Origin: Escherichia phage vB_EcoM-RPN242
Direction: 5' to 3' (one strand)
Length of the DNA: 64,000 bases
Sequence record: OL656110.1
In this document: positions 13,121 to 61,357 of the stretch, piece by piece
Layout of the letters: every line of letters starts with the position of its first letter
How positions within the stretch are numbered: the stretch's first letter is position 1
Made by a program: the position numbers and the translations under genes
The notes under the pieces: model-generated
Told to the model about the DNA's origin: nothing
The model's input: only the letters and a program-made list of their open reading frames with translations
Database searches by the model: none

Positions 13121-13531
13121 ATGAAATTACTGGGATATTTTCGTGAACTCCCAACGGGTACTGAAGGCAAGTTGTTCTCACAGGTGAAGGAGGATGACAT
13201 CGGTGATACGATGATTCCATTGTACACTCGTGAACTTCCTGTCGAAGGTGCCTGGGAGCGCCGTGTGGTCGCTGCCGCCAACAAATATGGTGATGTAATC
13301 GTCGTTGCCGACCGTCACCACAGCCGATTCATGAACAGCCAGCTCAAGATCCTGAAAGAAGCAGGCGTCATTAAATCCACCCATACCCGCGAACAGGGCT
13401 TCATCGACAACCAGGGAAACTTCCTCACTCGTGAAGAGGCGTGCATCGTAGCCCGTGAAGCTGGACAGATTAATCAGGTGCGCCTGAAGACAACCCCTTT
13501 CCGAGAACTCTTTTCCGAAGACCTCTATTGA
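13121..13531 (+). CDS. hypothetical protein
   Basis: 136-aa ORF in plus-strand early block. Confidence 0.5.
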   Translation: MKLLGYFRELPTGTEGKLFSQVKEDDIGDTMIPLYTRELPVEGAWERRVVAAANKYGDVIVVADRHHSRFMNSQLKILKEAGVIKSTHTREQGFIDNQGNFLTREEACIVAREAGQINQVRLKTTPFRELFSEDLY

Positions 13532-13581
13532 AGAAAAAGGCGGTATTATTACCGCCTCGACCTCTTGTTTGGTAACATCAA

Positions 13582-16967: not shown

Positions 16968-16990
16968 ATAAAGATTCAGCGGTTATTGAA

Positions 16991-17022
16991 GAAGGGGGAG
17001 TATATACTTCCCTTCGTTTATT
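16991..17022 (+). terminator. candidate terminator (imperfect GC-rich hairpin plus T-rich tail)
   Basis: GAAGGGGGAGTA...TACTTCCCTTC followed by GTTTATT. Confidence 0.4.
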
Positions 17023-17036
17023 AAGAGGAACCGGAA

Positions 17037-19101: not shown

Positions 19102-19151
19102 AATCTAGTCCTAAATAGCCATAACACTCTATCTATTTAAGGGCTGAGACC

Positions 19152-20120
19152 ATGGCCGACTTCAAGAAGACAATCGATAAGATCAAGGTTCTGAACACGA
19201 AGGGATTGTCCCAGGCTCAGAAGCAATTGTCTTATCCCCTGGACGTCACTGGGGGTAAGACTTTAGGACACTATGTCCTATTCAACATCAACCGTATCTC
19301 CGGTTCATCTTATGGCAACACGGCTACTCAGACTATCGAGAACCCAATACAGAACCCTCTGGGGAATACTCCTGTGGTCTATGGGTCCAAGTCTGGTTCC
19401 ATCACCAAATATGCATGGGCGCGTCACGTTCGTTCAAACGAGTCTATCGTACTTTGTATGCCCGAGTACATTACAACCAACTATGGTGTTGGCTGGAACG
19501 GTAGCGAGCTGGGGTTGGCTGGTATGGGAGCACAGTTCCTTTCCCGCGCCGCCCAAGACATGACTCAGTTTAAACTGGGTGATGCGCTCAACGTCGGGAA
19601 GGAGATGGGGCGATTCGCTGCCACCAAGGCTATCCAATCTGCGTCGGAGGCTATTCCATTCCTGCCGAGCATTAACGCCCATGACACCCTTGAGTTGTTC
19701 ACAGGCACCATGACCAACCCATATGTGGAGATGATCTTCCAGGGTGTTCGCAACCGTGAGATTCCATTTACATTCAAATTCACGCCGCGATCTCAGAAGG
19801 AAGCCAAGATGGTCCGTGAGATCATCCGCATGTTCAAGATGCACATGTACCCAGAGTACAAGTACAACAAGAATTCCAGCGCGTTTTACTTGCATCCTTC
19901 AACATTCGACATTACGTTCATGGTCAATGGGGGGCGTAACCAGTGGCTGCACCGCATCTCCACTTGTGTACTTTCCAACATGTTCGTCAACGAGACGCCG
20001 GACAGTTCATACGCGGTTCACAAAGATGATGGTATCGTGTCCACGCAGGTTGACATGACCTTCATCGAACTGGAGCCTCTACACAAAGGGCGCTTTGAAA
20101 CCGAAGGCGATAGCTTCTAA
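19152..20120 (+). CDS. baseplate structural protein (position of gp53-like wedge component), putative
   Basis: 322-aa ORF opening a plus-strand block that ends with a tape-measure-like gene; no recognisable motif. Confidence 0.4.
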   Translation: MADFKKTIDKIKVLNTKGLSQAQKQLSYPLDVTGGKTLGHYVLFNINRISGSSYGNTATQTIENPIQNPLGNTPVVYGSKSGSITKYAWARHVRSNESIVLCMPEYITTNYGVGWNGSELGLAGMGAQFLSRAAQDMTQFKLGDALNVGKEMGRFAATKAIQSASEAIPFLPSINAHDTLELFTGTMTNPYVEMIFQGVRNREIPFTFKFTPRSQKEAKMVREIIRMFKMHMYPEYKYNKNSSAFYLHPSTFDITFMVNGGRNQWLHRISTCVLSNMFVNETPDSSYAVHKDDGIVSTQVDMTFIELEPLHKGRFETEGDSF

Positions 20121-24782: not shown

Positions 24783-25382
24783 TCATTTCGGCGCGATCCA
24801 CCCCAATTCCTTGACCATCGTTACATTTCGACATATGCCTAACCTGGCACCATCGGCTACCCACCAATCATAGAATATTCCTGCCAAAGCCCAATATTTG
24901 CGGGTATGCGTCGCATTTGGACTTTCCCAAGGCTTTGAATGGATTTGTTTTAATTTGGAACGTTGTGAATCTGATTTGGGTCTGCCCATCAGCGAATCGG
25001 AAATTTTCGATCTGTGTTCACGGGATAACGCCACCCCCTTGAATCTTTCACTGCATTTTTGTTTAAACTCTGGAGTGCTGTTAGCTGTCTTCACCCTTTC
25101 CCATTTTCTGAGAGCGAACTCTTCGTATTGGCGTGAAGTTTGTGATTTTGATATATTTCTCATCAAAGAAAAGATTTTCACGTATGCAGGAGACATACTG
25201 AATATCTTGGCCAAAAGTTTGTGAACTATGAAATGTTCCCGAGCAGTTAGAACAGCAATATTCTCCGCAGTATCAGCCCCTCCCAAGCTCCTGGGTTCTT
25301 TATGGTGTCTTTCTGAATACCCAATCAGATTGCGAGAATAAGACCTTTCAAGGATAGAAACCAACGCTCGGGTATAGTTCAT
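24783..25382 (-). CDS. HNH homing endonuclease with NUMOD-like motifs
   Basis: HNH core ERHHKEPRSLGGADTAENIAVLTAREHFIVH; C-terminal PWESP...YWALAGIFYDWW parallels ORF 8421-9251. Confidence 0.75.
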   Translation of the reverse strand: MNYTRALVSILERSYSRNLIGYSERHHKEPRSLGGADTAENIAVLTAREHFIVHKLLAKIFSMSPAYVKIFSLMRNISKSQTSRQYEEFALRKWERVKTANSTPEFKQKCSERFKGVALSREHRSKISDSLMGRPKSDSQRSKLKQIHSKPWESPNATHTRKYWALAGIFYDWWVADGARLGICRNVTMVKELGWIAPK

Positions 25383-25858: not shown

Positions 25859-26074
25859 TCACCCCTTCAGTTCGATTTTCAGGTCATCAACATAACAACC
25901 CGTCTCTGTGTCCCAGATCTCAATACTGAAATGCTGGGTCGCCACTTTTGGGGTAAATCCCCAGGCCTCTGCTTTCTCAAGAAAGGAGTTTTGGGCGTCC
26001 TCTGGCGTCCCGGACACGGATTGAACCTGTAGACCGTCACACCCATCATGATACTGCAGCAAATACACTTTCAT
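25859..26074 (-). CDS. hypothetical protein
   Basis: 71-aa ORF; ATG overlaps ligase stop (TAATG). Confidence 0.45.
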   Translation of the reverse strand: MKVYLLQYHDGCDGLQVQSVSGTPEDAQNSFLEKAEAWGFTPKVATQHFSIEIWDTETGCYVDDLKIELKG

Positions 26075-27498
26075 TATGCAGACTCCAGCAGGAATACAAT
26101 GTTTTCGATGTATGCTTTCTGAATCGCATAGACTTCATCCAGTGTGTTGGCCACTTTCTTGTCAATGCGGACTTCTACAAGGCGAGGTAGGAACAAAGAC
26201 TTCATCGCATCATCTGTCTTATCCTGTACGCCATTGGAGAGCACTGCGGCGATCTTGCCAATGTAGTCGCCCTGGTTCTCCCACATATGGCGTCTCAGCT
26301 CATCTGAGATCCCTGATACACCAACAACAAGCAAGCCATCGGAAGTTTTACAAATCAGTGAGCCAAAAGTCTTGGCGTGTTTACCCTTCTTGTCGGCCTC
26401 GTTGAAGCCCACGATTTCAAGGTCACACTCAACCTCCATCTTCAGCTTCAGACCTTCAGAAGAAGTCCCATCTTCCCAAGGCATGTCGGCGGCCTTACAT
26501 ATCGTGCCTTCTTCTTTGCGAGCCAGCGCGTCTTTGAAGTGGTCGACGGCTTCGGCAAATGAGTGAACAACGCGGGTTTCTTGAACCTGAACCAGACCGT
26601 CGTCTTCATCAAACAGTTGCTGGATAATATCGAAGCGGCGCTCATACGGGGTGTCCACGCGCTGGGCGTTGAACCAGTTGTCGTACGGGATAACATCCCA
26701 CACCCGGTAGATCACCCGATAACGATCTTCCAGGGGTTCTCCTGTCTGAATCACGCTGTTGAGTTTACCGTTACCGACAGCACGAGGCAGGATGGTATTC
26801 GACTTGAGGTCAACAACGAGAAGTTCACCATGGAACACACTCTCACCAATCCCCGCATCGTAGATCAGGTCTTTGAACACCAGTGAAAGGTTATCAACCG
26901 AACCACCTGCGATAAGGGAACCGGAGCGAGAGCGAATCTCAGGCTCTTTATTGTACCGACATATGATGTTGGCGAACATACCGTCTGACTTCAGCTGGCT
27001 GTAGACGCCGCGCTTGAAGTCCATCTTCTTCAGCAGGTCAATCGTCATGTTGTCATAACGATGATACGGAAGAATGTTGATCAGGCGTCCAGTGCCTCCG
27101 GCGGCGTTGAATGCAGCGTTGATGCCCTTCTCTGCGATACCCGCCTTGATATCACGGTCTAGGATCATCTGAATGAGTTCGTGGTATTGGGGATCCATCT
27201 TCAGGGCGACAGAGGCCAACAGGGCATCAGCCTTTTGGCCACCGACAAGGCGCTGTGCCATCTGGTCGAGGACGTCATAGACTTCGCTGATGTCATCAGT
27301 CTTCTCACGGACGAGCATGCGAGGGTACGCGCTGAGCTTCAACTCAGTCCGATAGAACGACGTCATTGGGTCATAGACATATTGCAGGAAGTCTGCCAAG
27401 TCTGGGTTGTTCTTGAATGCTTCGGTCAGCACAGCTTTCTTCGCATTGCTGCCTTTGGTTTCGCGAAGTCGGTGGACTATTTCAAGGATAGGGATCAT
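26074..27498 (-). CDS. 30: ATP-dependent DNA ligase (gp30-like)
   Basis: 474 aa; adenylation motif I LKSDGMFANI (KxDG); N-terminus resembles T4 ligase; SD GGAGG. Confidence 0.85.
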   Translation of the reverse strand: MIPILEIVHRLRETKGSNAKKAVLTEAFKNNPDLADFLQYVYDPMTSFYRTELKLSAYPRMLVREKTDDISEVYDVLDQMAQRLVGGQKADALLASVALKMDPQYHELIQMILDRDIKAGIAEKGINAAFNAAGGTGRLINILPYHRYDNMTIDLLKKMDFKRGVYSQLKSDGMFANIICRYNKEPEIRSRSGSLIAGGSVDNLSLVFKDLIYDAGIGESVFHGELLVVDLKSNTILPRAVGNGKLNSVIQTGEPLEDRYRVIYRVWDVIPYDNWFNAQRVDTPYERRFDIIQQLFDEDDGLVQVQETRVVHSFAEAVDHFKDALARKEEGTICKAADMPWEDGTSSEGLKLKMEVECDLEIVGFNEADKKGKHAKTFGSLICKTSDGLLVVGVSGISDELRRHMWENQGDYIGKIAAVLSNGVQDKTDDAMKSLFLPRLVEVRIDKKVANTLDEVYAIQKAYIENIVFLLESA

Positions 27499-27505
27499 GT
27501 GGTGC

Positions 27506-27542
27506 CTCCAGGGTTATATGTGCTGCTATTATAACCCTGGAG
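27506..27542 (-). promoter_or_regulatory. 13-bp perfect hairpin sequestering the ligase SD
   Basis: CTCCAGGGTTATA / TATAACCCTGGAG arms with 11-nt loop; CTCC arm is the complement of the ligase SD GGAG on the mRNA. Confidence 0.45.
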
Positions 27543-27621
27543 ACTTCAATATATTATCAGGGAACGGATCCCAGCACTCAGCGACGGTATACAGAACAAC
27601 CAGTTGATAAACTTTATCATG

Positions 27622-29140: not shown

Positions 29141-29221
29141 TTCCAGCCTCATGATGTAGTTGTAACTCTTCAATACAGATTAAATATTAGGCGATTATTT
29201 CTTGAAAGTAAAGTTATTGAA

Positions 29222-29248
29222 GTAAAAGCCCAGTACTTGACTGGGCTT
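29222..29248 (-). terminator. rho-independent terminator
   Basis: 9-bp stem AAGCCCAGT/ACTGGGCTT, 5-nt loop, U-rich on minus strand; 18 nt after stop of ORF 29266-29580. Confidence 0.45.
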
Positions 29249-29265
29249 CTTGGTGTTCGATTGAC

Positions 29266-34467: not shown

Positions 34468-35510
34468 ACTACACCTTCCAGGAACTTAGGATCAACGATC
34501 TTGCGGTCAACCGGAGAATGGGTGAGCGCGGTGTTCAAGCCATGATCCTGAATCAGGTCCAGGTTAATGAGCTTTTCGTTCAGTTTGCAGTGCAGACAGT
34601 ACGCCATCTGTACAATCAGGCCGCGATCCGCATCGTATTCCTTCAGGTGGGCGACCACAGTTTCCCAAGGGCTGCCGATATCACAGTGATGAAGCACGCC
34701 AGTGAACAGATTGCGGATATGGTTCTGGTTGGTCACGTTCTTGAAGTGAATCATGGAGTTGATGAACCCAGCTTCTACTTTGGTGTCCTTCGTGATCTTT
34801 CCCAGCTGCTTCTGGCTGACTTCATTGTTGTAGTAATGAAGATTGTTAGAGAATAGCTTGTACTGACCGACATCAACATCCAGCACCCGAGCAATCACTT
34901 CCTGAAGAATAGAGAACTCAATGAAGTTGATTGAACTCATCCCCCACAGAACATCCTGTGAGCGATTGATGACCGTCAGGTTCAGACGACCTTCAACGAT
35001 GGCGAACAACAGAGCCAGGTTACACACCATGTCCTTAGTCTTCGCTTCGCCGCTCTCGCTGAACTTCGCCAGACCAGCATCCGAATCTAGAGCCGGGTCA
35101 TAGATGGTGAGGTACGCCTGGCGAGTGTTTGGGTTCTTGCGCAGGCGGTTAATAACGCTATCCAGCTGGCCATGGGCGTACAGACGCGGACCATAAGCAG
35201 CTCGCCATGTTACCCCATCATCCGAAAAGTTAGCAGCGCGAGGCAATACGCGTGACAGGAACTTTATGTCGTTGCGGCCTGACAACACCCAGAAGGTCTC
35301 GCCGATGGCAGCGATAGCCGATGAGTTGCGACCTTCAATAGAGAGCCAGCGGTCACGGATGTCGGCGACGGTTATGGTCACGCCATCAAGGAAGCGGGTG
35401 CTATCAGTATTGATTTCAGCATTACCAGGATCAGATTCGATCCCGAATTCACGGATAGCCAAGACAGCCTGCTTCAGCATGTCATTGTTGTTAATTGCTT
35501 TGATTTCCAT
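34464..35510 (-). CDS. thymidylate synthase-family enzyme, uracil-type (TS or dUMP hydroxymethylase)
   Basis: TS motifs GETFWVLSGRND, NPNTRQAYLTIYDP, catalytic Cys in KDMVCNLALLF, RSQDVLWGMSSINFIEFSIL, LHYYNNE (Asn as in dUMP-specific enzymes); ~80-aa C-terminal extension. Confidence 0.8.
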   Translation of the reverse strand: MEIKAINNNDMLKQAVLAIREFGIESDPGNAEINTDSTRFLDGVTITVADIRDRWLSIEGRNSSAIAAIGETFWVLSGRNDIKFLSRVLPRAANFSDDGVTWRAAYGPRLYAHGQLDSVINRLRKNPNTRQAYLTIYDPALDSDAGLAKFSESGEAKTKDMVCNLALLFAIVEGRLNLTVINRSQDVLWGMSSINFIEFSILQEVIARVLDVDVGQYKLFSNNLHYYNNEVSQKQLGKITKDTKVEAGFINSMIHFKNVTNQNHIRNLFTGVLHHCDIGSPWETVVAHLKEYDADRGLIVQMAYCLHCKLNEKLINLDLIQDHGLNTALTHSPVDRKIVDPKFLEGVV

Positions 35511-36169
35511 CAGATACTCCCAAAATCACGACAGAGGAATGCCATCACAGCCTGGTCTACTGTTAGGCCGTGAGACTTCATCATACCCGCAGCCACCGTA
35601 GGGAACAAGTCTTTATGTCGTTGACGATGGTCATGAACTCTCTCCCACTTCTCGACCACCAGACTTTCATTGAAGTCCACACCACCGTTACGTGATTTAA
35701 CGCGGGAGATACACGTTTCAAGGGGAGTGTCCATAAAGAGCACAACCAATTCACGTGGTGGGCGTGTCAGGCGGGGGATCCAAGAACTCAATAATGTTGA
35801 TGGAATGATACCTTCGAAAATCACATCATATTTCAAGTATTCTGGTTGGTCAGCAATAGACAACGCGAACAACATCTGCTCAGTGTCCTTCAGGGAATCA
35901 ACCCCCTTGGACTTCGACTTGTCATATTTACCGATACAGACCACGTTGAACGAAGGACAGACAGTCAGCATGACCTTGCCGTTATGGGTCACGACATACG
36001 CCTGAGGATCCCTCTCCGCCAGCTGAGAAGGCACAGTGGATTTACCGCTACCATTGGAGCCTTTGACGTAGTAGATTTGCCCTCGTGCTGGGTAGATCCC
36101 CTTTACGACGGGTGGTTTAAAGAATGTGTGGACGGGGCGCTTCATCAGCCCCTTCAGGGAGTAGGACAT
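35510..36169 (-). CDS. P-loop kinase, candidate 5-hydroxymethyl-dU DNA kinase
   Basis: ATG 36169 with SD GGAG (track start is TTG); Walker A GSNGSGKST; stop overlaps TS-family start (TGATG). Confidence 0.55.
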   Translation of the reverse strand: MSYSLKGLMKRPVHTFFKPPVVKGIYPARGQIYYVKGSNGSGKSTVPSQLAERDPQAYVVTHNGKVMLTVCPSFNVVCIGKYDKSKSKGVDSLKDTEQMLFALSIADQPEYLKYDVIFEGIIPSTLLSSWIPRLTRPPRELVVLFMDTPLETCISRVKSRNGGVDFNESLVVEKWERVHDHRQRHKDLFPTVAAGMMKSHGLTVDQAVMAFLCRDFGSI

Positions 36170-36244
36170 AAACTGCTCCAATAAACAAAAGGAGCTGCTA
36201 TTATAGCAGCCCCTTCATCTATTGAACAGTTTCTGAACTTAAAT

Positions 36245-47677: not shown

Positions 47678-48139
47678 CTACTCCGCCAGGGTGATCACAA
47701 CCATATTTAAGACTGTGTCGATAGCTCGGCCTGTTTCCTCTTCATGGAGGGTTTCGGCGCGGAGGTGCACGTCGGTGATGAAATTGTCGATGTGCATTGA
47801 AGTCAGATACGGGCGGTGTTGACTGACCGGGCGGTTGACCAGAACATAATTGCGCAATGTGTTGAAGTCCTGATGAGAGCACCCCGTTGTATCGATACGA
47901 AGGAAGCGTTCGTTGTGGCTTGTCTTCAGTTCAGTTACCTTGCCGAGGTAGACCAGAGGTCCATTGCGACCGATACGGAACATAACATCAACAACAGACT
48001 TGAAGATTTCGCGTTCAATTAGTGCGGTGGGTGACCAGCAGATCTCTTCTTTGTCATCGGCGTACAGGGTGTCGATCACCAGAGGGAGTTGAATGTAACC
48101 GAAGTTGTGCATTGGGTTGGTGAGTACTTTGTTTGTCAT
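47678..48139 (-). CDS. hypothetical protein
   Basis: 153-aa ORF; 16-nt leader GGAACTATATCATGAC shared with ORF 60916-61251. Confidence 0.45.
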   Translation of the reverse strand: MTNKVLTNPMHNFGYIQLPLVIDTLYADDKEEICWSPTALIEREIFKSVVDVMFRIGRNGPLVYLGKVTELKTSHNERFLRIDTTGCSHQDFNTLRNYVLVNRPVSQHRPYLTSMHIDNFITDVHLRAETLHEEETGRAIDTVLNMVVITLAE

Positions 48140-48150
48140 GATATAGTTCC
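48135..48150 (-). repeat. 16-nt start-region motif GGAACTATATCATGAC (copy 1)
   Basis: identical 16-mer at 61247-61262; related leaders at 55194 and 7358. Confidence 0.5.
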
Positions 48151-48210
48151 CGCTTTCAATTTGTGGCGAATGCCAATGAATTACTGGGAAGTATAAGCGC
48201 AGGGATTATA

Positions 48211-48237
48211 GAAGTAAAGCCCCTCAATGAGGGGCTT
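48211..48237 (-). terminator. rho-independent terminator after nrdH
   Basis: 9-bp stem AAGCCCCTC/GAGGGGCTT with AAT loop, 8 nt after nrdH stop. Confidence 0.55.
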
Positions 48238-48244
48238 TGGCTTG

Positions 48245-48469
48245 TCAGCGTTTAAGGCTGGCGGCGAGTCCATTAACGTCGGTCACGGTCTGGTCAGCGA
48301 GGACGATTACAGGCATCGACACGCGCGGCTTACCCGTCAACTGCTGAAGTTCTTCCAGCCGGTAATCTTTGTCCAGCTTGAGGATCTTGTGTTCCAGCCC
48401 TTTCATTTTGCACAGATTTTCGGCTGTTACACACTGAGCGCAACCTTGTTTGGAATAGATCGTAATCAT
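48245..48469 (-). CDS. nrdH: NrdH-like glutaredoxin
   Basis: 74 aa; N-terminal redox motif CAQC after beta strand ITIYSK. Confidence 0.7.
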   Translation of the reverse strand: MITIYSKQGCAQCVTAENLCKMKGLEHKILKLDKDYRLEELQQLTGKPRVSMPVIVLADQTVTDVNGLAASLKR

Positions 48470-53257: not shown

Positions 53258-54052
53258 TTAACTGAAACTCTTGTATGCTGCTGCGAGCTTCGTGTCGTAC
53301 TGGTTCTTGGCATACGCCGGACCATTATAGCGCCGCGCAAACTCAGCCCAGTTCTTGTCCTTCAGAGCCTGCCAGAGCTTGGCGTCAGCCTTGATGAACT
53401 TCACGAATGCCATCAAATGAGCACGTTCTCCTGTCAGGAAGTCGTTGAACATCTCCTTGGCGTTGGCATATCCACAGACCTGGCAGTTGAATCCCATGAT
53501 CTGGAAGAGACCGTAAGAGGCGCTCTCGTACGCACAATCCTCATCAATGTTGATGGCCGCATGAAGTCGATCCAACTCCGCGTCGCCGCCCGTGTACCCG
53601 CCTGCAGAAGGGTTGACCAACGTCGGGTACATATGTCCCATGGCATTCGCCCGAGCCTGTCCGAACTTCGCCATCAGCTTTTTATACATGATGTGGCGCT
53701 CAAATAATGTCTTGATCTTACCTGACTTGGTGAAGCCCGTGCCGCGCGACTCAACCTGATTCACCGCCTTGACAGAGGCAAGGTCAACACCCAGATCGTT
53801 AGCAGCATCAATCAGGTCTGACTCAGTTAGATGATCCTGATGGGCGTCTCCGGCGTTGCGAATAGCATAGGAGGTCTTTGGACCCACGATACCATCAATG
53901 ACAAGCCCCGCACCCGCCTGAACAGTCTTGACGGCGTTCTCTGTTGCCTTGCCAAAGATACCATCAGCGACGAGGGTGAAGCCGATTTTGTTGAGGCTAT
54001 CCTGAAGTGCCTTCACTTCAGTACCACGGTTGCCAAATTTTAGAATGGCCAT
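53258..54052 (-). CDS. endolysin (N-terminal peptidoglycan-binding domain plus C-terminal muramidase-like domain)
   Basis: ATG 54052 with SD GGAGG; PG-binding-like LKFGNRGTEVKALQDSLNKIGF...DGIFGKATENAVKTVQ; C-terminal VESRGTGF...YGLFQIMG glycosidase-like motifs. Confidence 0.7.
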   Translation of the reverse strand: MAILKFGNRGTEVKALQDSLNKIGFTLVADGIFGKATENAVKTVQAGAGLVIDGIVGPKTSYAIRNAGDAHQDHLTESDLIDAANDLGVDLASVKAVNQVESRGTGFTKSGKIKTLFERHIMYKKLMAKFGQARANAMGHMYPTLVNPSAGGYTGGDAELDRLHAAINIDEDCAYESASYGLFQIMGFNCQVCGYANAKEMFNDFLTGERAHLMAFVKFIKADAKLWQALKDKNWAEFARRYNGPAYAKNQYDTKLAAAYKSFS

Positions 54053-54121
54053 AAGAAAATACCTCCACAATGAATGCAGAGGTATTTAAAGTGAAAGTGA
54101 ACTACTTGAGGGAGTGGTGTA

Positions 54122-61251: not shown

Positions 61252-61262
61252 GATATAGTTCC
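61247..61262 (-). repeat. 16-nt start-region motif GGAACTATATCATGAC (copy 2)
   Basis: identical to 48135-48150. Confidence 0.5.
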
Positions 61263-61326
61263 TGCTATTCAAGTTGGTGTCGTACTGCTTATGGAATGAA
61301 GTATAGGGAAGGATATTGAAGAAGTA

Positions 61327-61349
61327 AAGGGGCGAAAGCCCCTTTTATT
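61327..61349. terminator. GNRA-loop hairpin terminator
   Basis: 7-bp stem AAGGGGC/GCCCCTT with GAAA loop; TTTTATT on plus strand, TTTACTTC on minus. Confidence 0.5.
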
Positions 61350-61357
61350 GAATTATT

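What the first reader, a model, noticed from the sequence alone, without database searches (positions are those of the whole stretch)
27499..27542. 13-bp perfect hairpin sequestering the DNA ligase ribosome-binding site
The arms CTCCAGGGTTATA/TATAACCCTGGAG form a 13-bp stem whose CTCC is the complement of the ligase SD GGAG on the mRNA, ending 7 nt from the start codon. There is no U-tract, so it is unlikely to be a simple terminator. This looks like a translational repression or RNA-processing element controlling ligase expression.
Basis: seen in the sequence. Interest (0 to 1): 0.55.

Follow-up and report, generated by a model that had tools for sequence, protein, structure and literature searches.

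The report
Promoter-bearing hairpin masking ligase ribosome site
A conserved RNA hairpin hides the ribosome-binding site of a phage DNA ligase gene, but it also carries a promoter-like TATAAT whose transcripts would start inside the hairpin and escape it, as in a switch long known from phage T4.

Summary
The window is an Ackermannviridae (ViI-like, Agtrevirus-type) phage, and a perfect 13-bp stem lies directly upstream of the DNA ligase gene (26074..27498, minus strand). It is 15 bp if a U.G and a G-C pair are counted. It buries the GGAGG Shine-Dalgarno sequence and has no U-tract.

The hairpin is conserved in five phage lineages, even where the upstream DNA is unrelated. Formal covariation is weak.

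It is invariant in all 15 distinct relatives, including two unpaired loop bases, and an invariant A-C follows 7-8 nt later, while the rest of the loop varies. In this window TATAAT is strongly enriched in non-coding DNA, and six copies lie 29-32 nt before a start codon.

Best reading:
- Read-through transcripts fold the hairpin and are poorly translated (13-18 kcal/mol to open the site).
- Transcripts from the embedded promoter, which has no -35 element, would start in the loop with a 23-nt leader and be translatable (about 4-6 kcal/mol).

This is the logic of T4 genes e, 49, soc and I-TevI. Similar hairpins carrying a promoter-like motif precede the endolysin, resolvase and 5-hmdU kinase genes here. 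I score it as a new member of a known kind, of moderate interest. No start site was measured.

The parts
27530..27544 (-). 5' arm of the RNA hairpin (5'-GUCUCCAGGGUUAUA-3'). Its last four bases are the first four of the TATAAT hexamer.
   Evidence: RNAalifold predicts the same helix on 15 relatives.
27519..27529 (-). 11-nt loop (AUAGCAGCACA). Its first two bases complete TATAAT. The rest varies between lineages except an invariant A-C.
   Evidence: Alignment A2: loop columns 37-42 and 45 vary; columns 35-36 (AT) and 43-44 (AC) are invariant.
27504..27518 (-). 3' arm of the RNA hairpin (5'-UAUAACCCUGGAGGC-3'), which contains the Shine-Dalgarno sequence.
   Evidence: AUAACCC and GGAG are invariant in 15 distinct sequences, while the flanking loop and the SD-AUG spacer vary.
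27505..27509 (-). Shine-Dalgarno GGAGG of the ligase gene, 6 nt before the AUG and fully base-paired in the hairpin.
27528..27533 (-). Consensus -10-type hexamer TATAAT, the putative promoter of the ligase gene, with no -35 element.
   Evidence: The hexamer is invariant in all relatives, including its two unpaired bases. TATAAT is intergenic in 14 of 32 copies (P = 6e-7), and 6 copies lie 29-32 nt before a start codon; this one is 29 nt before it. No -35 with at least 4 of 6 matches lies at 16-18 nt.
27521..27521 (-). Predicted transcription start (A, the 7th nt after the hexamer), giving a 23-nt leader ACAUAUAACCCUGGAGGCACCAC-AUG. This is inferred, not measured.
   Evidence: The A-C at this spacing is invariant and the leader is 23 nt in six lineages.
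27542..27551 (-). Conserved box TATTGAAGTC at about -30..-21 from the predicted start. Its last 3 nt form the base of the stem. Its role is unknown.
   Evidence: The box is near-invariant in relatives. Homology with relatives begins at 27551-27557, just 5' of it. The genome-wide analysis was ambiguous.
26074..27498 (-). ATP-dependent DNA ligase gene (474 aa), the regulated gene.
   Evidence: Pfam PF01068 at 1.4e-15 and PHROG 114 at 7e-134. Relatives annotate it as DNA ligase.
27546..27620 (-). 24-codon ORF whose stop TGA (27548-27546) lies inside the box. It looks like a decayed remnant of the upstream ORF, which in relatives ends at a TAA 5-6 nt (in one lineage, L006, a TAG 11 nt) before the box.

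Best explanation
The element is a combined promoter and leader module with two states.

(1) Shown from sequence: on the ligase-sense RNA a stable 15-bp hairpin pairs the whole GGAGG Shine-Dalgarno sequence and ends 5 nt before the AUG.

(2) Inferred: transcripts that enter from upstream genes contain both arms, fold the hairpin and are translated poorly for ligase. No terminator-like site lies between the upstream genes and the hairpin.

(3) Inferred from comparative sequence patterns: a sigma-70-type -10 hexamer TATAAT sits at the 5' arm/loop junction. RNA polymerase starting about 7 nt downstream, at the invariant A at 27521 in the loop, makes an mRNA with a 23-nt unstructured leader. This mRNA lacks the 5' arm, so its ribosome-binding site is open.

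Ligase synthesis would then depend on firing of its own promoter and not on read-through. The promoter has no -35 element and belongs to a class that here mostly precedes replication, nucleotide-metabolism and DNA-modification genes.
For: Structure:
- The stem is 13 bp perfect, 15 bp with wobble, at -24.6 kcal/mol.
- A hairpin of -17.7 to -24.6 kcal/mol is kept in Agtrevirus, Limestonevirus, Kuttervirus, Taipeivirus and Serratia phage IME250, although the upstream flank is unrelated between them.
- Homology to relatives starts just 5' of the box (27551-27557).
- RNAalifold recovers the helix independently.
- 92.9% of pair cells are standard pairs, against 25-55% when the partner is slid.
- Pair 26-54 occurs as A-U, G-U and G-C.

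Promoter:
- TATAAT is invariant, including two unpaired loop bases, and the A-C 7-8 nt downstream is invariant, while the other loop columns and the SD-AUG spacer vary.
- 14 of 32 TATAAT copies lie in the 9.8% of non-coding DNA (P = 6e-7), and 6 lie 29-32 nt before a same-strand ATG.
- Four of those six copies precede replication, nucleotide-metabolism, DNA-modification or repair-like genes: ligase, NrdA, the 5-hmdU kinase and a weak DNA-repair-like match. One precedes an unknown gene and one a baseplate hub. TAAATA precedes tail, lysis and resolvase genes.

Energetics: opening SD-2..AUG costs 13.4-18.5 kcal/mol in the long RNA and 3.6-5.8 in the RNA started at the predicted site, in six lineages.

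Parallels in the same genome: after the ligase, the next three gene starts by the strength of masking each have a -10-like motif in the 5' arm or at the apex and the SD or AUG in the 3' arm, and so does a fourth ranked seventh. They are the 5-hmdU kinase (TATAAT), the RuvC-like resolvase, the endolysin and the tail-tube cap (TAAATA). The first three are conserved in relatives, and the resolvase hairpin shows a compensatory A-U to U-A change and a paired indel.

Precedent: in T4 genes e, soc, 49 and I-TevI, a late promoter lies in the DNA that encodes the 5' strand of an inhibitory helix (review PMC3014915).
Against: - No transcription start site or expression data exist for any Ackermannviridae phage in the searched literature, so the start in the loop is a prediction.
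- The promoter has no -35 element and, except in the Serratia phage, no TGn extended -10. With sigma-70 alone it might be weak or need an unknown activator. ViI-like phages lack MotA and AsiA (PMC3184105).
- Covariation is not statistically significant. No pair has a double-sided change relative to its commonest pair, and 144 of 500 shuffles reach the observed score.
- One Agtrevirus sub-lineage has a C.A mismatch and the Serratia phage has two mismatches.
- The invariant loop bases could instead be RNA contacts for a protein.
- The LIMEstone1 annotators, who searched for T4-like promoters, marked none here.
Confidence: 0.6

Rival explanations
1. Stand-alone translational repressor hairpin. 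All ligase mRNAs contain the hairpin. Translation is kept low constitutively, or is opened by a trans-acting factor such as a protein, a helicase, or ribosomes terminating on the upstream ORF. The TATAAT is only stem and loop sequence.
For: The hairpin and its masking of the SD are solid. In most relatives an upstream ORF stops 5-6 nt (in one lineage, L006, 11 nt) before the box, about 10-15 nt before the stem, so some coupling is conceivable. The conserved loop bases AU...AC could be a protein contact.
Against: This reading does not explain three things: why exactly the consensus hexamer is invariant, including two unpaired bases; why an invariant A follows at the canonical 7-nt spacing; and why TATAAT copies in this genome cluster 29-32 nt before start codons. 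A stem of -20 to -25 kcal/mol with no escape route would nearly silence a replication gene. In the window phage the upstream ORF has decayed, yet the element is intact.
Confidence: 0.14
2. Promoter only. The conserved block is the ligase promoter plus its 5' UTR. The inverted repeat has no function as RNA, because most ligase mRNA starts inside it.
For: Covariation is statistically insignificant. The 5' arm overlaps promoter positions -23..-9, and the 3' arm contains the SD, which is constrained in any case.
Against: AUAACCC in the 3' arm is invariant, although it is neither SD nor promoter and its neighbours vary. The hairpin stays at or below -17.7 kcal/mol in all lineages, and the antisense fold varies more (-12.4 to -24.9). 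A perfect 13-bp repeat is about 100-fold rarer than chance allows. Four other gene starts in the window show the same architecture, and three of them are conserved in relatives, one (the resolvase) with a compensatory change.
Confidence: 0.1
3. DNA-level operator. The inverted repeat is bound by a dimeric phage or host regulator that overlaps -10 to +18 and represses, or times, the ligase promoter.
For: The two 13-bp half-sites are perfect in the window. The position over -10 and +1 is typical of repressor operators. Covariation cannot discriminate between the readings.
Against: The centre-to-centre distance of the half-sites is 24 bp, which is unusual. In Limestonevirus and Kuttervirus the half-sites differ at 2 of 12 positions in a way that keeps G.U pairing in sense RNA but breaks DNA symmetry. 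The arm sequence recurs nowhere else in the window, so a dedicated regulator would have a single site.
Confidence: 0.07
4. RNA-processing site. The hairpin is cut by RNase III or another endonuclease, as at the RNase III site R1.3 upstream of the T7 ligase gene 1.3 (from memory). Cutting would free the ribosome-binding site or stabilise the upstream or downstream mRNA.
For: It is a double-stranded stem directly upstream of a ligase gene in a polycistronic unit. A hairpin without a U-tract could also act as a 3' exonuclease barrier.
Against: The stem is 15 bp with no internal loop, shorter than the roughly two helical turns of typical E. coli RNase III substrates (established knowledge). No Rfam family matches; the best hit scores 20 bits against a gathering score of 45-62. 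This reading does not explain the TATAAT and +1 pattern.
Confidence: 0.06
5. Intrinsic terminator or attenuator for the upstream genes.
For: Other palindromes in this genome are terminator-like and overlap promoters, for example at the 5-hmdU kinase gene.
Against: No U-tract follows on either strand. The terminator scan does not report the site.
Confidence: 0.03

Closest known systems
T4 gene e (lysozyme), 49 (endonuclease VII), soc and I-TevI leaders: an inhibitory hairpin over the translation initiation region, with a promoter inside its 5' strand (review PMC3014915)
   Same: The SD is buried in a stable helix of read-through transcripts. A -10-only promoter element lies in the DNA that encodes the 5' strand, so its own transcripts lack that strand and are translatable. 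The leader is short. The same genome applies the design with TAAATA motifs to its endolysin and resolvase, the functional counterparts of T4 e and 49.
   Different: The embedded element is TATAAT (sigma-70 type), not the gp55 late motif TATAAATA. The gene is a DNA ligase, a replication function. The host phage is in the Ackermannviridae, not a T-even phage. Transcript 5' ends are mapped for T4 e (PMC3014915); here nothing is measured.
Aeromonas phage Aeh1 mobE and T4 segB hairpins that sequester the ribosome-binding site (cited in PMC3014915)
   Same: [quoted passage not shown]
   Different: Those genes are homing endonucleases. The ligase element is linked to a core replication gene and is conserved across at least four genera and an additional Serratia phage.
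T4 middle promoters (MotA box at -30 plus a sigma-70 -10)
   Same: There is a -10 hexamer without a -35, a conserved box near -30, and the promoter drives a replication gene.
   Different: The box TATTGAAGTC does not match the MotA box (a/t)(a/t)(a/t)TGCTTtA, and it lies 8-10 bp from the -10 instead of about 12. ViI-like phages have no MotA or AsiA (PMC3184105).
T7 RNase III site R1.3 upstream of ligase gene 1.3 (from memory)
   Same: A stem-loop without a U-tract lies directly upstream of a phage ligase gene.
   Different: T7 sites are longer, with an internal loop, and are cleaved. This stem is 15 bp and continuous, it carries the SD and a -10 hexamer, and there is no evidence of cleavage.

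Membership tests
T4-type promoter-embedded hairpin masking the translation initiation region (e, 49, soc, I-TevI) | The SD and/or AUG is base-paired in a stable helix in transcripts that start upstream | tested here: met
   The 15-bp stem contains GGAGG. Folding energy is -24.6 kcal/mol. Opening costs 13-18.5 kcal/mol in six lineages. It is the most strongly masked of 88 gene starts.
T4-type promoter-embedded hairpin masking the translation initiation region (e, 49, soc, I-TevI) | A promoter -10 element lies in the DNA encoding the 5' strand of the helix | tested here: met
   TATAAT at 27533-27528 spans the last 4 nt of the 5' arm and the first 2 nt of the loop, and it is invariant in 15 relatives. 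The hexamer class is enriched in non-coding DNA and lies at a fixed distance from start codons.
T4-type promoter-embedded hairpin masking the translation initiation region (e, 49, soc, I-TevI) | Mapped 5' ends of the promoter's transcripts fall inside the helix, and those transcripts are translated better | not testable with these tools
   There is only a prediction: the invariant A at 27521, a 23-nt leader and an opening cost of 3.6-5.8 kcal/mol. No transcript data for this phage family were found.
T4-type promoter-embedded hairpin masking the translation initiation region (e, 49, soc, I-TevI) | The embedded promoter is a gp55-type late promoter (TATAAATA-like) | tested here: not met
   The hexamer is TATAAT and the next base varies (A or T). 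The late-like motif of this genome is TAAATA. The element works like the family but uses a different promoter class.
T4-type promoter-embedded hairpin masking the translation initiation region (e, 49, soc, I-TevI) | Read-through transcription from upstream genes reaches the element | tested here: inconclusive
   The genes are co-oriented and the scan found no terminator-like site on the minus strand between 27545 and 29150. This is a sequence inference only.
Canonical sigma-70 promoter | A -35 hexamer 16-18 bp upstream of the -10, or a TGn extended -10 | tested here: not met
   The scan, which requires at least 4 of 6 matches in each hexamer, does not list this site. Positions -15 and -14 are GG. 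Only Serratia phage IME250 has TGgTATAAT.
T4 middle (MotA-dependent) promoter | A MotA box (a/t)(a/t)(a/t)TGCTTtA centred at -30, and MotA and AsiA encoded by the phage | tested here: not met
   The box is TATTGAAGTC. Kutter et al. 2011 report no MotA or AsiA in ViI-like phages (PMC3184105).
Intrinsic (rho-independent) terminator | A G+C-rich stem followed directly by a U-tract | tested here: not met
   The stem is followed by GCACCACAUG. The terminator scan does not report it.
RNase III processing site (T7 R-site type) | About 20 bp or more of helix, often with an internal loop, and cleavage in vivo | tested here: inconclusive
   The stem is 15 bp, continuous, with an 11-nt loop, which is shorter than typical substrates. 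Cleavage cannot be tested here.
Any curated RNA family (Rfam 15) | A covariance-model match at the gathering score | tested here: not met
   The best matches score 20 bits against gathering scores of 45-100. All are chance hairpin hits.

The most novel reading that the evidence does not exclude
The ligase element may be one instance of a family-wide strategy in Ackermannviridae, which lack MotA and AsiA and whose early and middle promoters were reported as unidentified in 2011. In this reading, TATAAT promoters without a -35, placed about 30 nt before start codons, are the missing prereplicative promoter class. Many of them, like the late TAAATA promoters, sit inside hairpins that mask the ribosome-binding site, so each such gene is translated only from its own promoter and is insulated from read-through. 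For ligase, this tight dosage control could matter because unsealed nicks are loading sites for the sliding clamp that activates gp55-type late transcription. That link is T4 biology recalled from memory.
Probability: 0.2. Interest if true: 0.6.

Novelty: new member of a known kind. Interest (0 to 1): 0.4.

Why it matters
If correct, the result has four consequences.
- The T4 device of a promoter inside a hairpin that masks the ribosome site is not confined to T-even late genes. It would also be used, with a different promoter class, for a replication gene in a different phage family.
- It gives a concrete, testable candidate for the prereplicative promoters of ViI-like phages: TATAAT about 30 nt before the start codon, with no -35. 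Kutter et al. 2011 could not identify these promoters by informatics.
- It flags similar modules at the endolysin, resolvase and 5-hmdU kinase genes.
- It is useful for annotation and for engineering Kuttervirus and Agtrevirus reporter or therapeutic phages. An insertion next to such a module would change both transcription and translation of the neighbouring gene.

Tried and rejected
- **Repeated element.** The arm sequence occurs only at this site in the window, so it is not a dispersed repeat.
- **More relatives.** A metagenome scan with a ligase alignment gave only two loci, one near-identical and one too distant. Six more GenBank relatives added no new arm variants.
- **Distant relatives.** In the Vibrio phage K469 and Aeromonas phage phiA8-29 the ligase gene abuts the upstream gene, so there is no element. 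VAP7 has a different hairpin with TATAAT that does not mask the SD.
- **Covariation.** The formal test is not significant. I therefore do not claim covariation support, only conservation, thermodynamics and the A-U/G-U/G-C series at one pair.
- **The box TATTGAAG as a -30 promoter element.** Three sense copies are followed 10-11 nt later by a -10-like hexamer. However, most other intergenic copies are the reverse complement (CTTCAATA) of the spacer of a separate promoter family, TTTACT-N17-TATACT. The role of the box is left open.
- **Antisense promoter on the plus strand.** No -10 lies at a usable spacing (sequence inspection).
- **Rfam.** There is no match.
- **Literature.** I found no transcriptome or start-site data for Ackermannviridae. 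The LIMEstone1 record annotates no promoter at this site.
- **TATAAT as a gp55-type late motif.** Rejected, because the base after the hexamer varies and the late-like motif here is TAAATA.

Full report
**Observation**

- The arms are CTCCAGGGTTATA (27506-27518) and TATAACCCTGGAG (27530-27542), a perfect 13-bp inverted repeat with an 11-nt loop.
- The ligase gene is 26074..27498 on the minus strand. It matches Pfam PF01068 and PHROG 114.
- In mRNA sense the region reads ...AAUAUAUUGAAGUCUCCAGGGUUAUAAUAGCAGCACAUAUAACCCUGGAGGCACCACAUG.
- RNAfold adds a U.G and a G-C pair at the base, giving 15 bp and -24.6 kcal/mol.
- GGAGG is entirely inside the 3' arm. The stem ends 5 nt (15-bp version) or 7 nt (13-bp version) before the AUG. 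No U-tract follows.
- The window has two perfect repeats of this size, against 0.017 expected.
- The ligase start is the most strongly masked of 88 gene starts in the window: 18.7 kcal/mol to free positions -14..+3, against a median of 4.3.

**Context**

The window is 98% identical to Escherichia phages PC3, PH4 and A221, and about 89-92% identical to Agtrevirus and Limestonevirus phages such as SKML-39, MK-13 and LIMEstone1. It is therefore an Ackermannviridae (ViI-like) phage.

The ligase lies in a long run of co-oriented minus-strand replication genes: a DnaB-like helicase, the ligase and a helicase loader. The terminator scan found no terminator-like site on that strand between the upstream genes and the hairpin.

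**Conservation**

I retrieved ligase loci without reference to the hairpin. Nineteen IMG/VR loci came from Ackermannviridae relatives. A metagenome contig and six GenBank records were added.
- All carry the element. They represent Agtrevirus, Limestonevirus, Kuttervirus, Taipeivirus and Serratia phage IME250, and they give 15 distinct sequences.
- DNA upstream of the element is unrelated between lineages. BLAST homology with relatives begins at 27551-27557, just 5' of a conserved box TATTGAAGTC.
- In most relatives an upstream ORF stops 5-6 nt (in one lineage, L006, 11 nt) before that box, so box plus hairpin fill almost the entire 55-60-nt intergenic gap. In the window phage that ORF has decayed to a 24-codon remnant.
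- Distant Ackermannviridae from Vibrio and Aeromonas hosts have the ligase gene abutting its neighbour, and they lack the element.

**Is it an RNA structure?**

Evidence for:
- Every lineage keeps a hairpin of -17.7 to -24.6 kcal/mol on the sense strand. The antisense fold varies more, from -12.4 to -24.9.
- RNAalifold predicts the same helix.
- 92.9% of pair cells are standard pairs, against 25-55% when the partners are slid.
- The stretch AUAACCC of the 3' arm is invariant, although it is neither SD nor promoter. The loop next to it and the SD-AUG spacer are variable.
- One pair runs A-U, G-U, G-C across lineages.

Evidence against:
- No pair shows a double-sided change relative to its commonest type. 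The shuffle control is not significant, with 144 of 500 shuffles reaching the observed score.
- One Agtrevirus sub-lineage has a C.A mismatch and IME250 has two mismatches.

I therefore rest the structural claim on conservation and stability, not on covariation.

The last four bases of the 5' arm and the first two of the loop spell TATAAT (27533-27528).
- The hexamer is invariant in all 15 sequences, including the two unpaired bases.
- An A-C 7-8 nt downstream (27521-27520) is also invariant. The loop bases in between differ: AGCAGC, AACAAG, TGGATT, ATAACG, AGCATG.
- This is the pattern expected of a -10 element, a free discriminator and a +1 purine. The predicted leader is 23 nt in all six lineages examined.
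- In the window, 14 of 32 TATAAT copies lie in the 9.8% of non-coding DNA (P = 6e-7). Six of these lie 29-32 nt before a same-strand start codon, and the ligase copy is 29 nt before it.
- Four of those six copies precede replication, nucleotide-metabolism, DNA-modification or repair-like genes: the ligase, the ribonucleotide reductase large subunit, the 5-hmdU DNA kinase and a gene with a weak DNA-repair-like match. One precedes an unknown gene and one a baseplate hub.
- A second hexamer, TAAATA, is intergenic in 14 of 17 copies (P = 4e-12) and mostly lies 23-38 nt before a start codon. It precedes tail, lysis and resolvase genes, so it looks like the gp55-type late motif.
- The ligase promoter has no -35 and, except in IME250, no TGn. 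Kutter et al. 2011 (PMC3184105) state that ViI-like phages encode gp55, gp33 and gp45 but not MotA or AsiA, and that their early and middle promoters could not be identified.

**Model**

Read-through RNA contains both arms, and opening SD-2..AUG costs 13.4-18.5 kcal/mol. RNA started at the predicted +1 lacks the 5' arm, and the same opening costs 3.6-5.8 kcal/mol. Ligase would then be made mainly from its own promoter.

What is shown: the hairpin, its conservation, the hexamer and its comparative signature. What is inferred: that the hexamer is an active promoter, where transcription starts, that read-through occurs, and the size of the translational effect.

**Parallels in the same genome**

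After the ligase, the next three gene starts by the strength of masking have the same architecture, as does a fourth ranked seventh.
- The 5-hmdU kinase has TATAAT at the apex of a roughly 25-bp hairpin whose 3' arm holds GGAG.
- The RuvC-like resolvase carries the window's other perfect 13-bp hairpin, with cATAAATAgccc in the 5' arm and the 3' arm ending 1 nt before the AUG.
- The endolysin has tTTAAATAcc in the 5' arm and GGAGG in the 3' arm.
- The tail-tube cap has cCTAAATAgcc in the 5' arm.

The first three are conserved in relatives. The resolvase hairpin shows a true A-U to U-A compensatory change and a paired one-base deletion in both arms.

Endolysin and resolvase are the functional counterparts of T4 e and 49. 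Those are the textbook cases in which a late promoter lies in the 5' strand of an inhibitory helix, so that only late transcripts are translated (PMC3014915). This makes the same reading of the ligase element much more plausible.

**Rival explanations**

- A stand-alone repressor hairpin does not explain the hexamer and +1 signature.
- 'Promoter only' does not explain the invariant AUAACCC or the maintained stability.
- A DNA operator cannot be excluded, but it fits poorly with changes that keep wobble pairing while breaking DNA symmetry, and with a unique site.
- RNase III processing is unlikely for a 15-bp continuous stem, and there is no Rfam match.
- An intrinsic terminator is excluded, because there is no U-tract.

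**Comparison and novelty**

The element works like the T4 e/49/soc/I-TevI leaders. It meets the structural criteria of that class: a masked initiation region and a -10 element in the 5' strand. It differs in promoter type (TATAAT, not TATAAATA), in gene class (a replication enzyme) and in phage family, and it lacks any experimental mapping. I found no description of it in the literature I could search. I rate it a new member of a known kind, of moderate interest.

**What led nowhere**

- The metagenome scan added nothing useful.
- Extra GenBank relatives added no new variants.
- The TATTGAAG box remains ambiguous.
- No transcript data for Ackermannviridae were found.

Noticed in passing
window 42849-42891 (minus strand), upstream of 42257..42847: This is the window's only other perfect 13-bp hairpin (TAAATAGCCCATA / TATGGGCTATTTA, 17-nt loop). 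Its 5' arm carries a T4-late-like cATAAATAgccc and its 3' arm ends 1 nt before the AUG of a RuvC-like resolvase, the functional counterpart of T4 gp49. It is conserved in 16 relatives, with an A-U to U-A compensatory change and a paired 1-nt deletion in both arms.
   Followed up: partly
window 54057-54087 (minus strand), upstream of 53258..54052: A hairpin with tTTAAATAcc in its 5' arm and GGAGG in its 3' arm, followed by a T-run, precedes the endolysin (muramidase), the counterpart of T4 gene e. It is conserved in the 7 close relatives retrieved (absent in one 47%-identical locus), with exchanges between wobble and Watson-Crick pairs.
   Followed up: partly
window 36170-36232 (minus strand), upstream of 35510..36169: A roughly 25-bp hairpin has TATAAT (36205-36200) at its apex, a U-run after the upper stem (terminator-like), and the GGAG of the 5-hmdU DNA kinase gene in the lower 3' arm. 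It is conserved in 20 relatives; LIMEstone1 has TATTAT. It shares the 12-mer TATAATAGCAGC with the ligase element.
   Followed up: partly
window about 19104-19149 (plus strand), upstream of 19152..20120: A hairpin with cCTAAATAgcc in its 5' arm and the initiation region of the tail-tube cap (gp48-like) gene in its 3' arm. Freeing the start site costs 10.6 kcal/mol.
   Followed up: no
whole window: Two -10-type hexamers behave as promoter classes. TATAAT is intergenic in 14 of 32 copies, and 6 copies lie 29-32 nt before an ATG, four of them at replication, nucleotide-metabolism, DNA-modification or repair-like genes. TAAATA is intergenic in 14 of 17 copies, mostly 23-38 nt before an ATG, at tail, lysis and resolvase genes. 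Neither class has a recognisable -35.
   Followed up: partly
window 48139-48245, 61252-61357 and 29153-29265 (minus strand); L035 21619, 44597; L037 15540: A separate promoter-like family sits directly after terminator hairpins: TTTACT-N17-TATACT, with a conserved spacer TCTTCAATA. Its reverse complement accounts for most intergenic copies of the 8-mer TATTGAAG, which also forms the conserved box 5' of the ligase hairpin.
   Followed up: partly
window 13526-13560 and 16984-17024 (plus strand): At two more sites, TATTGAAG is followed 10-11 nt later by a -10-like hexamer (TATTAT, TATACT) that sits in a G+C-rich hairpin. Both lie 53-56 nt before a plus-strand start codon, the same spacing as at the ligase gene.
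   Followed up: no
window 27546-27620 (minus strand): A 24-codon ORF (MIKFINWLFCIPSLSAGIRSLIIY) ends in the TGA inside the conserved box. The DNA resembles the 3' end of an ORF that in relatives ends ...SQARSRTRQ* just before the box, so it is probably a decayed remnant.
   Followed up: partly
window 24783..25382 (minus strand): A 199-aa ORF between the helicase-loader gene and the small genes downstream of the ligase shows an HNH-like motif by eye (HHKEPRSLGG...N...H). It may be a homing endonuclease. Relatives differ in gene content around the ligase.
   Followed up: no
literature (PMC3296691, Table 2) and L035 42216-42392: The LIMEstone1 paper lists the DNA ligase among proteins detected in purified virions by mass spectrometry. 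The A221 record annotates a short regA-like translational repressor gene. Neither was examined further.
   Followed up: no
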